DNA of 51,118 bases, from contig NW_021833785.1 in assembly GCF_006345805.1 (NCBI RefSeq), positions 1-51,118 on the forward strand. Reading direction: 5' to 3'. Shown piece after piece: positions 39,884-51,118 of the stretch. The position numbers are program-made. The DNA comes from Octopus sinensis (Eukaryota). How positions within the stretch are numbered: position 1 is the stretch's first letter; every line of letters begins with the position of its first letter.

Positions 39884-42800
39884 CATGATATCTGTTATAT
39901 TTTGGTTCATCTCATAATGACCTTGTTTCATTTGACCATTAAAGATATTATTATCAGTGGTGGTGGTCAGTTGGACTGTCAACACCGCTAATATCAACAT
40001 GATCAATATACAATTCCTCCACAAACACAAGGGTTTTGTAGTACATGTGATTAAATCTATTTCCATTATTTTACTGGTACATTGGTAATATTTATATTAT
40101 ACAGATCAATATAATACTGGAGAGTGTATATAATATGTATTTATTAACTAACCTGCTTCAGCATCGCACACACCACTTTATACTCTCGCCTGAAAGTAAT
40201 GGATGAGGAAAGAAAAGCATGAAAAAACAAACATCACACAGCTTGAGATAATAGTTATTAGGTCATTAAAGAAAACAAATGTAATTAGGTCACAATAACT
40301 TAATTACAGCAATTATTACACACATACTCACACACACATATATTTATTCAATACACACTCTACACAGTAGAACAATGATATATACACACCTGAGTAAACC
40401 CAGAAATGTAAAGACAGGAAAAATACTGCTAAGAATTCTGACAGCTAATATAAACATGAAATTTAGGAAGGAAAGAAGGGCTACAGGTAATCATATGAAC
40501 CCCAGTACATGACTGGTATTGTATTTTATCAACCTTGCAAAGATGGAAGGAGAAGTTGACATTGTCAGGATTTGAACTCTGAACGTAAAGAGTCGTAAAT
40601 AAAATAACACAATTTATTTTCTTCAAAAGTAATAAGAAACAAGAACTGGAGAAAAGAAGGAAGACAGTTTATTAAAGGAACCCCTGGGTATTACTGGTAC
40701 AGATTATATTGACCCCAGAGTGATAGTAAATATTCTGGTAGGATTTGAACATGGAACATAAAAGAGACAAATGTAAATACTGTAAGGGGATGATTCTGTA
40801 TTTAGCCCAGGGTCGGAATAAATAGGGAAACTACAAAGGAGAGAGAGTGAGGAAGAAAGAGAGAAAGAGAGAGAAAGTAGTTATAGATGGGATGAAAGGA
40901 AGAAGAGAGAGGATTTGAACCTGTGACGTTGAGGAAATGGAGAACGAGATGAAGTAAAGTGTCCAGTCAGGCAACAACAATAACAATTATGGTGATGATT
41001 AATTAATAAAGTAGATTACAGTGTTATTTCAGTGCGAAAGAGAGAAGAAAGACAATGACCCCATGGTGGGATTATGACATGAATGACTGAATGAAAAAGA
41101 AACAAACATTATTGAAAACATAAAAGAAACAGATTTGGATATTCCAGATCCAATGGGGACTTACCTCCGAACTGCCCAATGCAGTGGTGTGTCTCCATCG
41201 TTGTTCACGACATTGGCATCGATGCCATTGTGACCCAACAAAATTTCGACAGTGTGCAAGTATCCCCAATAACAGGCGAAGTGCAGCGGTGTGCGACCAT
41301 CTTTATTTCGAGGATTCACCTGAAAAAGAAAAGAATAAAAACATTAAAAATGGTGTCTGAAAGGGGAGTCGGGTGGTGAAGAATTAAAAGAAAAATTCAC
41401 AGAAAAAGAGAAGAGAAGGAATGAAATTAATTAAACAGGTGGAATGATTGGGGTGGGGAGTAGTTAATGCAGATTTCTATTGTATATACACACACGCGTA
41501 TACACACATACATGTGTACATATAAATATATTTATACACACACACACAAACACACGCATATAGGATGAATAACTCAATAAATAAACACATAGAGCAGCAA
41601 AATGTGTGTGTATGTGTGTGTTCGCGTGTGTATGTTCATAGTTACATTTATTCTTTTATTCTTTCATTTGTTTCAGTCATGTGACTGTGGCCATGGTGGA
41701 GCACTGTCGTTAGTCGAGCAAATCGACCCCAGTAAGCCTTGTACTTATTTTATTAGTTTCTTTTGCTGAAACGCTAGTTTACGGGGACGTAAACACACCA
41801 GCAGCGGTTTTCAAGCGATGTTGGGGACAAATACAGACACACAAACACACGCACGTACACACATACACTCATAACACACACACAGACACGCACATATATG
41901 TACATATATTATATATATATATATATAATATATATATGGACATACATATATACATATATATATATCTGTATATATAAGGCAAGATGTGTGTGTGTACGTT
42001 TTGTAATTTATGCACATCTAAAAATTAACACGCATGCCGCTCAAATTTTAGGGGGTCATTCGTCATGACCCCGGCAGTATTTTCGTCAAATTTCTCCCGA
42101 GACATCCGCGAATAGCGGTAAATAATTTTGAGCCATAACTTCTAAATTTTTAAGATGGCGAAAGCTACCATTGTTTACAAAGCAAACATGAGTTAAGTTC
42201 TCTCCTAGCGACGGTGTAAATAGAGGGAGGGAGAAGGAGAGGGAGAGAGAGAGATTTTTATAATTTCGTCTTTTTACTGGCAATAACAGACAGACAGGTG
42301 TTGTTATGTATGTTTGTATGTGTGAATGGCTTCAGTCACGCATACACACACGCGAGCATGTATGCGTAAAAGACACATAATGGCAATGTTTGTGTGTGTG
42401 TGTGTTGCGTATATATATACGGGCAACATAAACAATATTCTCCGTTTCTACAACTAATTTCCAAATTAGCTGAATCCGTTGTTAATCATAGCATAGCGAT
42501 ATATCTGGTCGTGCGTGTGAACATGGGAGAGAGCAGAGGTTACCAGAGCAAAGATCTACGTGTTGACTGTAGACACGCTCTCCTCGCAAACGACAGCTAT
42601 TATTTTGTAAACAATGTTTCGAACTGTTCATGTTTTCGAAAGGAGAGGGGTCAACCTAAAGCGTTGACCCGGTCATAAAAACAAACAAAAATAGTAATAT
42701 GTGTAAAAGAACTTCCTCTAAAAATATGACCAAAAAAACGTGCTCTCGCAAAAGGGGTTGGGGGAGAGGCCTATGGCCTTTTCTTTGATAATATCTTTCT

Positions 42801-43544
42801 TGCTCATTTAAATTCAGTTCAATGCAGTCTTGCCTTGAACCAAACCTTTCTCTTTGTGTGTGTGTGTTCTTGATAATCGTTTCGAACAAGTTGTTTTACA
42901 CCTATTACACTATTTTTTTGTTTTTGTGCCCGGGTCAGACATGTAACATCCACGATGTGAATTTTCCGAGGCCTCTCCCCCACTCCCCTTTCGCGATCGC
43001 ACATTTTTTGAGTCATATTCGTTTAGAAGAATTTGTTTTACACCTATTACACTATTTTTTTGTTTGTTTTATGACCGGGTCAAACACTTTAGTTTGACCA
43101 GGAGAGGTATGACTTTCACATCGCTGCGGGAGAAGGTAGGCTCCTCTATTCCTGTTACAAAACTTACTTCCGGGTACCAAATTTGCTTCAATTGATGGTA
43201 TTACTCGGGTCGGAGGTGGTGGTGGGACAGTGGCAGGGGCAAAGGCGTGCAGAAACATGTATACAATAGGTGTATGTACGTATATGTTTGCGTGTGTGTG
43301 TGTTTTACCCATATATATAAACTTAGTTGTGATCTGAACATAACCGCTTCTGAAACAGAGGTTCCGGAGCCCTTTTGGGCGTTTTATTTTCCTTGCTGGA
43401 AGGGTTCTCAATCCATGGGCAAAATGGGGTTACACGAAAAAAAAAAGAAAAAAAACAATCGATGAGTGTAAAAATCGAGAAACCGATTTCTTATGGAACC
43501 ATGTGGTTTGTAAGCAAGCTACTAACCACACAGCCAATCCTGTG

Positions 43545-43578
<34 letters not shown>

Positions 43579-43823
43579 TGTGGTTGTATGTTCATCATGA
43601 AGCGTTTAAGAATAAATATTTCTTTATAAAATTTTCTGATAATCCATCCCTATCCATGTCTTAATCAACAATTATGTCTGGAGTTGGGATTGGTTTGAAA
43701 CTCATCAAATGCTTTTATTTTTTCAACATAATCGGAAACACCAGAAAGTCATGGAGGAAAAATAACGGGGCTCAGGAAGTATATATATGTATGTGTGTGT
43801 GGATATGTATATATATATATATA

Positions 43824-43885
<62 letters not shown>

Positions 43886-48400: not shown

Positions 48401-49008
48401 TATCATCATCATCAGCATCATCATCATTATCATCCTCCTCCTCCTCCTCCTCATCATCATCATCATCATCATCGTAATCATCATCATCACCATCATCATC
48501 ATCATTATCATACTCATCATCATTATCATCATCATCATTATCATCATCATCATCATCATCATTATCAGCATCCTCCTCCTCCCTCCTCTCCTCCTATCAT
48601 CATCATCATCATTATCATCATTATCCTCATCATCATCATCATCATAATCATCATCATCATCATTCATTATCCATCACATCATCATCATCATCCTCCTGCT
48701 CATCATCATCATTATTATCTCTCATCATAATCATCATCATCATCATCATCATTATCATCATCCTCATCCTCATCCTCATCGTCATCATAATCATCATCAT
48801 CATCATTATCATCATCACATCTGCATCATCATCATCATTATAATCATCCTCATCCTCATCCTTATCATCATCCTCATCATCATCATCATTATCCTCATCA
48901 TCATCATCATCATCATCATAATCATCATCATCATTATCATCCACATCATCATCATCATCCTCATCATCATTATCATCCTCATCCTCATCATCATCATCAT
49001 CATCATCC

Positions 49009-49039
<31 letters not shown>

Positions 49040-49550
49040 TATCATCATCATCATCAGCATCATCATCATCATAATCATCATCATCCTCCTCCTAATCATC
49101 ATCCTCATCATCATCATCATCATCATCTTTATCATCATCATAATCATCATCTTCCTCCTCATCATCATCATCCTCAACATCATTATCATCCTCATGATCA
49201 TCATCCTCATCATCATTATCATCCTCATCATCATCATCATCATCATCATCATTATCATCATCCTCATCATCATCATCATCATCATCATCGTCATCATCAT
49301 CATCCTCATAATCATCATTATCATCATCATCATCAGCATCATCATCTTCATAATCATCATCATCCTCCTCCTAATCATCATCCTTATCCTCAACATCATC
49401 ATCATCATCATCATTATCATCATCATAATCATCATCATCCTCCTCCTAATCATCATCCTCATCCTCATCATCATCCTCAACATCAATATCATCCTCCTCA
49501 TCATCATCCTCATCATCCTCATCATCATCGTCATCATCATCATCCTCATT

Positions 49551-49582
<32 letters not shown>

Positions 49583-51118
49583 CCTCCTTATCAGCATCAT
49601 CATCATCATCATCATCCTCATCATCATCATCATCCTCATCATCATCATCATCATCATCAACATCCTCATCATCATCATCATCATCAATCATCTTCATCAT
49701 CATCATAATCATTATCGTCATCATAATCATCATCATCATCATCCTCATCATCATCATCATACTCATCATCATCATCATCATCATCACCATCATCAACATC
49801 ATCATCCTCATCATCATCATCCTCATCATCATCATCATTATCATCATCATCATCCTCATCATCATCATTATCATCATTCTCATACTCATCATCATCATCA
49901 TCCTCATCATCCTCATCATCGTCATCATCCTCATCATCCTCATCATCATCATCCTCATCCTCCTCCTATCATCATCACCATCATCATCAGCAGCAGCAGC
50001 ATCATCATCATCATCATTATCATTATCATCAACTTCATCCTCATCATAATTATCATCATAATCATCATCATCATCATCATCATTATCATTATCATCATCA
50101 TCATTACCATCATCATTATCCTCCTCATCATCATCATCATCCTCATCTTCATCATCTTAGTGAGTTTTCCAGTATTTAAGTTCCATACTTAGGCACACAC
50201 ACACACTGAACGTAAAGAGTCGTAAATAAAATAACACAATTTATTTTCTCTAAAAGTAATAAGAAACAAGAACTGGAGAAAAGAAGGAAGACAGTTTATT
50301 AAAGGAACCCCTGGGTATTACTGGTACAGATTATATTGACCCCAGAGTGATAGTAAATATTCTGGTAGGATTTGAACATGGAACATAAAAGAGACAAATG
50401 TAAATTACTGTAAGGGGATATTCTCTATTTTAGCCCACGGTCGGAGTAAATAGGGAAACTACAAAGGAGAGAGAGTGAGGAAGAAAGAGAGAAAGTAGTT
50501 CTAGATGGAGGAGGAAAGGAAGAGAGAGAGGATTTGAACTGTGACGTGAGAGGAAATGAGAACGAGATGACGTAAAGTGTCCAGTCAGGCAACAACAATA
50601 ACAATTATGGTGAGATTAATTAATAAAGTAGATTACAGTGCGAAAGAGAGAAGAAGACAATGACCCCTGGTGGGATTATGACATGAATGACTGAATGAAA
50701 AAGAAACAAACATTATTGAAAACATAAAAGAAACAGATTTGGATATTCCAGATCCAATGGGGACTTACCACTGAACTGCCACATGCAGTGGTGTGTCTCC
50801 ATCGTTGTTCACAACATTGGCATCAATGCCATTGTGACCCAACAAAATTTCGACAGTGTGCAAGTATCCCAGATAACAGGCGAAGTGCAGCGGTGTGCGA
50901 CCATCATTAGACCGTGCGTTGACCTGATAAAGAAAAGAATAAAAACATTAAAAATGGTGTCTGAAAGGGGAGTCGGGTGGTGAAGAATCAAAGAAAAACT
51001 CACAGAAAAAGAGAAGAGAAGGAATGAATGAAATTATTAAACAGGTGGAATGATTGGGGTGGGGAGTAGGTAAGGGAGATTTCTATTGTATATACACACA
51101 CGCGTATACACACATACA

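What the first reader, a model, noticed from the sequence alone, without database searches (positions are those of the whole stretch)
41064..50990. Duplicated ankyrin exons are more divergent than their introns, with changes on the binding surface
Seen: the two 155-bp exons differ at 16 positions by manual count, giving 7 amino-acid changes (A/P, S/N, N/K, L/W, V/W, Q/R, W/R). The ~100 bp of intron next to the donor (41064-41164 vs ~50668-50768) is identical, and the ~65 bp next to the acceptor has one difference. Known: ankyrin ligand specificity lies in the beta-turn before TPLH and the exposed residues of helix 1 (largely the positions randomised in DARPins). All 7 changes fall in those two segments; helix 2 is unchanged at the protein level. 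Inference: diversifying selection or patchwise gene conversion on a recognition module, as in variable innate immune receptors.
Basis: partly seen in the sequence, partly recalled or inferred. Interest (0 to 1): 0.85.

Follow-up and report, generated by a model that had tools for sequence, protein, structure and literature searches.

The report
Duplicated ankyrin exon with one swapped patch
Two copies of a 155-base ankyrin exon in one animal gene really do differ more than the introns around them, but half of the excess lies in one 18-base patch that looks copied in from elsewhere, and nothing here shows selection for new binding surfaces.

Summary
Two 155-bp ankyrin exons on the minus strand, A (41165-41319) and B (50769-50923), differ at 16 of 155 positions with no indel. 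Their intron flanks, part of a duplication of at least 0.94 kb, differ at 16 of 752 aligned positions plus 16 indel events (Fisher p=1.3e-5).

Diversifying selection is not supported. Overall dN/dS is 0.38, and synonymous sites are themselves about 8 times more diverged than the flanks. Eight of the 16 differences fall in the first 18 bp (permutation p=0.0024), where 4 of 4.7 synonymous sites are changed. The other 45 complete codons are not clearly above the flanks.

My best reading is a recent intragenic duplication followed by one short, exon-confined conversion tract from a more distant ankyrin paralog, plus CpG decay and a few surface substitutions. No donor was found in the window.

The gene has ankyrin repeats followed by an IAP/Mind-bomb-type RING. 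Exons B, C and D read in frame. Copy A has no in-frame partner exon in the window, so it may be unproductive.

No eukaryotic sequence collection was available, so paralogs, alleles and raw reads were not checked. This is a modest instance of a known kind.

The parts
50769..50923 (-). Exon B, the upstream copy of the 155-bp ankyrin exon (one and a half repeats). It starts in phase 0 and ends two bases into a codon.
   Evidence: Pfam Ank 50.8 bits against a cut-off of 21.1. The best PDB matches are DARPins and ankyrin-1/2.
41165..41319 (-). Exon A, the downstream copy of the same exon. Its reading frame and both splice sites are intact.
   Evidence: Pfam Ank 53.5 bits.
50906..50923 (-). The first 18 bp of exon B: the divergent patch, with 8 of the 16 differences.
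   Evidence: positions 3, 6, 7, 9, 12, 13, 14, 18; permutation p=0.0024. (pS 0.857, pN 0.30).
41302..41319 (-). The first 18 bp of exon A: the counterpart of the patch.
40576..41512 (-). Duplicated segment, copy A: exon A with 193 bp of upstream intron and 589 bp of downstream intron.
   Evidence: Self-BLAST gives 92.5% identity over 945 columns. Alignments.
50203..51118 (-). Duplicated segment, copy B. It is cut off by the end of the window. Its downstream boundary abuts a (TG)n run and then the (CAT)n array.
44784..44937 (-). Exon C, 154 bp, lying between B and A. It completes the split codon of B and ends in phase 0. It is ankyrin helix 2 plus one repeat.
   Evidence: Pfam Ank 31.3 bits.
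36748..36948 (-). Exon D (ends approximate), two ankyrin repeats. It starts in phase 0 at the same repeat position as A and B. An alternative acceptor lies 12 bp upstream.
   Evidence: Pfam Ank_4 28.7 bits. phmmer against the window's six-frame peptides.
35001..35177 (-). Probable last ankyrin-like exon (ends approximate), with the reading frame broken by one base in an A-rich run near 35066-35085.
   Evidence: and the two overlapping open frames. No Pfam match to the one frame tried.
32398..32589 (-). Open frame with a C3HC4 RING finger of the IAP/Mind-bomb type, downstream on the same strand.
   Evidence: Pfam zf-C3HC4_3 31.3 bits against a cut-off of 27. PDB matches to cIAP1 and XIAP RINGs, best E=4.6e-4.
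45008..50156 (.). A 5.1-kb (CAT)n microsatellite filling most of the intron between exons B and C.
   Evidence: Tandem Repeats Finder: period 3, 1717 copies. GC skew about -0.9.

Best explanation
**Shown**
- A stretch of at least 0.94 kb, holding one 155-bp ankyrin exon, is present twice on the minus strand, 9.6 kb apart. Both copies lie inside what reads as one ankyrin-RING gene.
- The intron flanks differ by about 2% in substitutions, so the two copies separated recently.
- The exon is about five times more diverged than the flanks, but unevenly. Eight of the 16 differences lie in the first 18 bp. There, synonymous sites are close to saturation.
- The other 137 bp carry 8 differences: three CpG transitions, two two-base changes at Trp codons, and one single change. 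This part is not clearly above the flanks.
- dN/dS is below 1 in every partition.

**Inferred**
- After the duplication, one copy had a short tract overwritten from a more distant paralogous ankyrin exon. The tract is at least 18-23 bp and at most about 116 bp, judging from the nearest flanking differences.
- This would be ectopic gene conversion. It stays inside the exon because only the exon still resembles older paralogs.
- The remaining amino-acid changes fall on the beta-turn and the end of helix 1 because those are the positions an ankyrin repeat can change without unfolding.

**Shown for frames, inferred for function**
- Exons B, C and D read through in frame.
- Copy A sits between C and D. 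C to A is in frame, but A to D is not, and no bridging exon was found.
- In this assembly copy A is therefore most likely an unused or frame-breaking (poison) exon copy, not a second recognition module.
For: **Duplication and counts.**

**Size of the excess.** Exon 16/155 against flanks 16/752, p=1.3e-5. Corrected for composition, 4.5 differences are expected and 16 seen, P=2e-5.

**Selection measures.** Nei-Gojobori S=36.3, N=116.7, Sd=6.5, Nd=8.5, pS=0.179, pN=0.073, dN/dS=0.38. Synonymous sites against flanks give p=2.6e-4.

**Clustering.** Eight differences in one 18-bp window, permutation p=0.0024.

**Patch against the rest.**
- Codons 1-6: pS 0.857 (4 of 4.7 sites), pN 0.30.
- Codons 7-51: pS 0.079 (p=0.04 to 0.16 against the flanks), pN 0.044 (p=0.29).

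**CpG.** Three of the 8 differences outside the patch are transitions at CpG, at positions 99, 111 and 152.

**Frames.**
- 155 + 154 bp (B + C) equals 103 codons, and D starts in phase 0.
- From A, the frame entering D is that of the open frame 36879-37022(-). It stops about 23 codons in.
- One search found 248 open AG...GT candidates of length 3n+1. After its pyrimidine-tract and hydrophobic-motif filters it printed 5, all starting at the acceptor at 40645. None looks like ankyrin. The other 243 were not printed or inspected.
- One search printed 35 candidates with fair splice signals. None looks like ankyrin.
- phmmer of the four exon peptides against 2206 six-frame peptides hit only the open frames of B, A, C and D. 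The next best visible hit had E of 1.7 or more.
Against: - No donor for the patch exists in the window: no other match to the first 24 nt of either copy within 5 substitutions. Conversion is inferred from the pattern alone.
- Splitting the exon into a patch and a rest was done after seeing the data, on a single pair of sequences.
- Collapsing the differences into 7 events (7/155 against 32/768, p=0.83) rests on my own grouping.
- The exon has no indel where 3.3 are expected from the flanks (P=0.037), and both copies keep an open frame and consensus splice sites. This hints that copy A is, or recently was, under coding constraint, which sits badly with calling it unused.
- Four of the seven replaced residues are at the positions that vary between DARPin modules. 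Selection on binding is therefore not excluded. A dN/dS of 0.38 on 51 codons does not differ significantly from 1 (p=0.098).
- A bridging exon shorter than about 12 codons, or one lost to an assembly error, would escape my search.
Confidence: 0.5

Rival explanations
1. Diversifying (positive) selection on the target-binding face of a duplicated ankyrin module. Both copies are used, and amino-acid changes at the beta-turn and helix-1 surface were favoured.
For: - All 7 replacements lie outside codons 19-47 (P=0.0018, a test chosen after seeing the data).
- They fall at repeat positions 32, 1, 2, 14, 10, 13 and 14. Positions 2, 13 and 14 are among those that vary between DARPin modules.
- The exon exceeds the flanks in divergence.
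- The exon has no indel (P=0.037).
Against: - dN/dS is 0.38 overall, 0.35 in the patch and 0.55 elsewhere.
- Synonymous sites carry the excess at least as strongly.
- Outside the patch, pN of 0.044 does not differ from the flank value of 0.021 (p=0.29).
- Copy A has no in-frame continuation in the window.
- Ordinary structural constraint would place the replacements at the same positions.
Confidence: 0.12
2. An older duplication whose introns were later homogenised by repeated conversion between the two copies, while selection kept the exon differences. This is the pattern described for MHC introns (recalled from memory, not checked here).
For: - Exon synonymous divergence (0.179) is far above flank divergence (0.021). 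An older exon between younger flanks would look like this.
- The 101 bp after the donor are identical.
Against: - The synonymous excess is confined to the first 6 codons. In codons 7-51, pS is 0.079, and two of the 2.5 synonymous changes are CpG transitions. Most of the exon is therefore as young as its flanks.
- This reading needs two separate tracts that each stop at an exon edge.
- The proximal flanks are not significantly more alike than the distal ones (p=0.77 for substitutions, p=0.10 for all events).
- It needs both copies to be functional, which conflicts with the frame problem of copy A.
Confidence: 0.13
3. An assembly artefact: a false or misplaced duplication next to long satellite arrays. 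Copy A or B would then really be the other haplotype, or a copy from a paralogous gene elsewhere, and the differences would be allelic or between genes.
For: - Copy B lies at the very end of the window and abuts a 5.1-kb (CAT)n array.
- The flanks show as many indel events as substitutions (16 and 16). The next ankyrin-like exon has a one-base frame break in an A-rich run. Both are typical of long-read errors.
- Copy A breaks the reading frame of an otherwise coherent B-C-D model.
Against: - There is no N or gap in the window.
- The two copies have different sequence beyond the shared boundary at 40576 and 50203, so this is not a simple haplotype overlap.
- Substitutions, unlike indels, are not a common long-read error, and 8 in 18 bp is not an error pattern.
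Confidence: 0.15

Closest known systems
Mind bomb (MIB1/MIB2)-type E3 ubiquitin ligases
   Same: A block of ankyrin repeats is followed on the same strand by a C3HC4 RING of the IAP/MIB type (Pfam zf-C3HC4_3; PDB RINGs of cIAP1 and XIAP). The last ankyrin-like exon recalls the end of the MIB ankyrin block. That likeness is from memory and was not tested.
   Different: The N-terminal MIB/HERC2, ZZ and REP domains would lie outside the window. Only one RING was found. A Death-domain open frame lies 10 kb further downstream and its link to this gene is unknown. No Mind bomb ankyrin or RING structure appeared among the PDB matches.
Recent duplicates whose exons outrun their introns (snake-venom PLA2 genes and the NPIP/morpheus family; both recalled. 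Of PMC7419210 on NPIP I saw only the search listing and the start of the abstract)
   Same: Exon divergence is several times intron divergence between young duplicates.
   Different: Those cases rest on dN/dS above 1 across many copies (recalled). Here dN/dS is 0.38 and the excess is at synonymous sites and in one patch.
Interlocus (ectopic) gene conversion that leaves mosaic patches in paralogs (of PMC3728101, PMC3924837 and PMC3966223 I saw only the search listing and the start of the abstracts)
   Same: A short run of dense differences sits inside otherwise nearly identical sequence. The tract length fits tens to about a hundred bases.
   Different: No donor copy has been seen, and only two sequences are available. 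No formal conversion test could be run.
DARPin libraries (designed ankyrin repeat proteins)
   Same: Aligned to DARPin modules, four of the seven replacements (positions 2, 14, 13, 14) fall at positions that differ between modules. The standard list of randomised positions (2, 3, 5, 13, 14, 33) is recalled. The passages read in PMC8683736 give no numbers.
   Different: Three replacements (positions 32, 1 and 10) are neighbours of the randomised positions and not on the list. Positions 3, 5 and 33 are unchanged.
Poison exons and pseudo-exons
   Same: Including copy A between C and D shifts the frame and brings a stop after about 23 codons.
   Different: Nothing shows that A is spliced at all. 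There are no transcript data.

Membership tests
Ankyrin repeat (Pfam PF00023 / PF12796 / PF13637) | Match above the curated cut-off, with the G-x-TPLH motif followed by two helices | tested here: met
   exon A Ank 53.5 bits, exon B 50.8 bits, exon C 31.3 bits (cut-off 21.1); D matches Ank_4 at 28.7 bits (cut-off 22.7); 411 PDB sequences at E of 0.001 or better, all ankyrin or DARPin among the 60 listed.
Mind bomb-type E3 ligase | Ankyrin block followed by one or more C-terminal C3HC4 RINGs of the IAP/MIB type in one protein | tested here: inconclusive
   Both parts are present on the minus strand (RING 31.3 bits against a cut-off of 27). That they belong to one transcript is not shown. One exon between them has a broken frame.
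Mind bomb-type E3 ligase | N-terminal MIB/HERC2, ZZ and REP domains | not testable with these tools
   They would lie beyond the end of the window, upstream of exon B. No eukaryotic collection was available.
Positively selected duplicate exons (accelerated evolution) | Exon divergence above intron divergence | tested here: met
   16/155 against 16/752, p=1.3e-5.
Positively selected duplicate exons (accelerated evolution) | dN/dS above 1 | tested here: not met
   0.38 overall. 0.35 in codons 1-6 and 0.55 in codons 7-51.
Gene-conversion mosaic | Differences clustered in a tract beyond chance | tested here: met
   Eight of 16 differences in 18 bp, permutation p=0.0024. pS is 0.857 in the patch and 0.079 outside it.
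Gene-conversion mosaic | An identifiable donor carrying the tract | tested here: inconclusive
   None in the window. The rest of the genome could not be searched.
Mutually exclusive exon pair | Two homologous exons of the same length and phase | tested here: met
   Both are 155 bp, start in phase 0 and have the same splice sites.
Mutually exclusive exon pair | Adjacent, with no other coding exon between them, and each alone keeps the frame | tested here: not met
   Exon C (44784-44937) lies between them. B pairs with C, while A has no partner exon.
Variable innate immune receptor family | Many paralogs or alleles with hypervariable recognition sites under positive selection | not testable with these tools
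   Only two copies are visible. No paralogs, alleles or expression data could be reached.

The most novel reading that the evidence does not exclude
The ankyrin-RING (Mind-bomb-like) genes of this animal form a multi-copy family. Short conversion tracts confined to exons shuffle the beta-turn and helix-1 surface between paralogous ankyrin exons. That would give a combinatorially varied set of substrate-recognition grooves on an E3 ligase, possibly tied to Death-domain signalling. The patch seen here would be one such exchange caught soon after a duplication.
Probability: 0.08. Interest if true: 0.7.

Novelty: new member of a known kind. Interest (0 to 1): 0.25.

Why it matters
As it stands this is a small, tidy example of how a raw count showing the exon more diverged than the intron can mislead. 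The signal looks like adaptive change on a binding surface. It resolves into one short replaced tract plus CpG decay, with dN/dS below 1.

It would matter more if the genome holds many copies of this exon that exchange such patches. That would be a repeat-protein counterpart of conversion-driven repertoires. Nothing here shows it.

For annotation, the window suggests an ankyrin-RING gene with an extra, frame-breaking exon copy and a one-base frame break further down. Both should be checked against reads before any evolutionary claim is built on them.

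Tried and rejected
**Bridging exon between A and D.**
- I looked at the open frames of 36900-41200.
- I enumerated AG...GT candidates of length 3n+1. One search found 248; its filters passed 5, which were printed, and none is ankyrin-like. One search printed 35 with fair splice signals, and none is ankyrin-like.
- I ran phmmer of the four exon peptides against 2206 six-frame peptides. 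Only the open frames of B, A, C and D were hit.
- Exons under about 12 codons would be missed.

**Donor of the patch inside the window.** None found within 5 substitutions of the first 24 nt of either copy.

**Base composition as the cause of the excess.** Rejected: 4.5 differences expected, 16 seen.

**Conserved intron next to the exon (splicing or editing elements).** Proximal and distal flanks do not differ significantly (p=0.77 for substitutions, p=0.10 for all events).

**RNA structure pairing the exon with its intron.** z-scores of 0.12 and 0.37, no better than shuffles.

**Known RNA families and tRNA-derived elements.** The flanks contain repeated GTTCAAATCC motifs, so I checked. Rfam gave 0 matches and ARAGORN found 0 genes.

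**Folding each exon peptide alone to place the changes.** Mean pLDDT was 62.3 and 63.9, and helices 1 and 2 merged into one helix. The models are unusable. I placed the changes by the DARPin alignment instead.

**Further domains between D and the Death-domain frame.** Ten more open frames gave 0 Pfam matches.

**PDB search with the Death-domain frame.** Only weak matches: Fas death domain at E=0.054 to 0.09, and spurious alphaRep hits.

**Papers.**
- (48 papers with at least 3 of 4 terms, 15 listed) gave nothing on an ankyrin-RING-Death family in molluscs.
- The passages of PMC11463336 read concern ankyrin caspases and are irrelevant.
- In one search the phrase 'exons more divergent than' occurred in none of the 12 listed papers.
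- Searches gave only general background.
- I make no claim that this case is absent from print.
- Supplementary files were not consulted. They are closed, and none bears on a claim made here.

**Not done.**
- The one genome-contig scan holds only bacteria and archaea, so I did not spend it.
- The protein-atlas search, complex prediction and search_dna_similar were not used, because none holds animal genomes.

I do not take this window for human.

Full report
**What is there.** The window is A+T-rich animal DNA with very long simple repeats and no N. A self-comparison finds one long repeat pair relevant to the finding: 40576-41512 against 50203-51118, with 92.5% identity over 945 columns. The second copy runs off the end of the window.

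On the minus strand each copy holds a 155-bp open exon. Each has a pyrimidine tract and CAG acceptor and a GTAAGT donor. Exon A is 41165-41319 and exon B is 50769-50923. Both match the Pfam ankyrin models well above cut-off. In the PDB they align best to DARPins and ankyrin-1/2.

**Check of the observation.** The exons differ at 16 of 155 positions (6 transitions, 10 transversions) with no indel. This gives six replacements in complete codons and one in the split last codon. The 101 columns after the donor are identical. The 65 columns before the acceptor have one difference.

Over all flanks there are 16 substitutions in 752 aligned positions plus 16 indel events. The exon excess is significant under each test:
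- Fisher p=1.3e-5.
- p=0.012 against the distal flank even when every indel event counts as a difference.
- 4.5 differences expected and 16 seen after allowing for the exon's higher G+C, P=2e-5.

**What carries the excess.**
- Nei-Gojobori counts give pS=0.179, pN=0.073 and dN/dS=0.38.
- Synonymous sites alone exceed the flanks (p=2.6e-4). Selection for amino-acid change cannot explain that.
- The differences are clustered: 8 lie in the first 18 bp (permutation p=0.0024).
- In codons 1-6, 4 of 4.7 synonymous sites are changed (pS 0.857, pN 0.30).
- In codons 7-51, pS is 0.079 and pN is 0.044. Neither is clearly above the flank value of 0.021 (p=0.04 to 0.16, and p=0.29).
- Of the 8 differences outside the patch, three are transitions at CpG, four form two two-base changes at Trp codons (TGG against CTG and GTG), and one is single.
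- If the patch and each two-base change count as one event, the exon has 7 events in 155 bp against 32 in 768 columns of flank (p=0.83). That grouping is mine and was made after seeing the data.

**Where the protein changes fall.** Aligned to DARPin modules, the replacements are at repeat positions 32, 1, 2 and 14 of the first repeat and 10, 13 and 14 of the next. Positions 2, 13 and 14 vary between the DARPin modules in that alignment. Positions 32, 1 and 10 are their neighbours.

No replacement falls in codons 19-47, although two synonymous CpG changes do. This is the pattern that ordinary constraint on TPLH, the glycines and helix 2 gives in any ankyrin repeat. It does not by itself indicate selection for diversity. 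Folding each exon peptide alone gave models too poor to use (pLDDT 62-64).

**The gene around it.** Between B and A lies a third ankyrin exon, C (44784-44937, 154 bp). It completes the split codon of B and ends in phase 0. Downstream of A lies exon D (about 36748-36948). It starts in phase 0 at the same repeat position as A and B.

B-C-D therefore reads through, and C-A is also in frame. From A, however, the frame entering D is the open frame 36879-37022(-), which stops after about 23 codons. I found no bridging exon between A and D. In this assembly copy A has no productive continuation.

Further downstream on the same strand are:
- an ankyrin-like exon whose frame is broken by one base in an A-rich run;
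- a C3HC4 RING of the IAP/Mind-bomb type;
- about 10 kb further on, a Death-domain open frame.

The layout of ankyrin repeats followed by a RING recalls the C-terminal half of Mind bomb ligases. That comparison is from memory, and the N-terminal domains that define the family would lie outside the window. The joined spliced model was left out of all searches and folds.

**How it most likely came about.** The low and even divergence of the flanks points to a recent duplication within the gene. A tract of 18 bp with 8 differences and near-saturated synonymous sites is too dense for point mutation. It is what a short conversion tract from a more distant paralogous ankyrin exon would leave.

Such a tract would be confined to the exon because only there is homology with older paralogs left. 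The tract may include the single difference 5 bp upstream of the acceptor. It is bounded by the next differences about 66 bp upstream and 52 bp into the exon.

This is inference. No donor is present in the window and no other copy of the genome could be searched.

**Rivals.**
- Selection on the binding face is not excluded by 51 codons (dN/dS 0.38 does not differ significantly from 1, p=0.098). It explains neither the synonymous excess nor the frame problem of copy A.
- An old exon between homogenised introns predicts high pS along the whole exon, which is not seen.
- An assembly error remains possible. Copy B is at the window end next to a 5.1-kb (CAT)n array. Indels are as common as substitutions in the flanks. 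A neighbouring exon has a homopolymer-type frame break.
- In the other direction, the absence of indels in the exon (P=0.037) and the intact splice sites hint at coding constraint on both copies.

**Ideas that led nowhere.**
- No RNA structure links the exon to its intron.
- There is no Rfam or tRNA match.
- The exon-proximal intron is not significantly more conserved than the distal intron.
- No further domains were found in ten more open frames.

**Novelty and limits.** Young duplicates whose exons outrun their introns, and mosaic patches made by interlocus conversion, are both known kinds. Of the papers found I saw only the listings and the starts of the abstracts. The classical examples are recalled from memory.

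This is a new instance in an ankyrin-RING gene, not a new mechanism.

Noticed in passing
window 6352-18886: A 12.5-kb array of a 69-bp satellite (about 181 copies, 84% matches) with extreme strand asymmetry (GC skew about -0.77, AT skew about -0.53).
   Followed up: no
window 45008-50156: A 5.1-kb (CAT)n microsatellite (about 1717 copies) fills most of the intron between exons B and C. It starts about 50 bp from the boundary of the duplication, behind a short (TG)n run.
   Followed up: partly
window about 35066-35085 (minus strand): The ankyrin-like exon that ends near 35001 reads in two frames, one base out of step, within an A-rich run. This is either a true frameshift (a decaying gene) or a homopolymer error of the assembly.
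   Followed up: partly
window 32398-32589 (minus strand): An open frame with an IAP/Mind-bomb-type C3HC4 RING finger (Pfam zf-C3HC4_3 31.3 bits; best PDB match the cIAP1 RING, E=4.6e-4).
   Followed up: partly
window 22651-22944 (minus strand): An open frame matching the C-terminal two thirds of a Death domain (Pfam 26.7 bits against a cut-off of 22.6; weak PDB matches to the Fas death domain). Whether it belongs to the ankyrin-RING gene is unknown.
   Followed up: partly
window 2332-2667 (minus strand): An open frame of tandem C2H2 zinc fingers, which also shows as an 84-bp tandem repeat at 2340-2619.
   Followed up: no
window 4564-5311 (+) and 29651-30108 (-): Two open frames carry a similar cysteine-rich motif (CSICR.G.GRNS.RCT.CKLWTH), which looks like remains of one kind of mobile element in opposite orientations. 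Next to them lie longer open frames that I took for retroelement remains by eye. Neither 4775-5311(+) nor 29815-30108(-) had a Pfam match at E of 0.01 or better.
   Followed up: no
window 363-938: A 188-bp unit repeated three times at 95% identity.
   Followed up: no
window 40576-40920 and 50203-50545 (minus strand): The motif GTTCAAATCC occurs three times in the downstream flank of copy A and twice in that of copy B. The third occurrence in A sits exactly at the boundary of the duplication. It recalls a tRNA T-arm (from memory), but ARAGORN and Rfam found nothing.
   Followed up: partly
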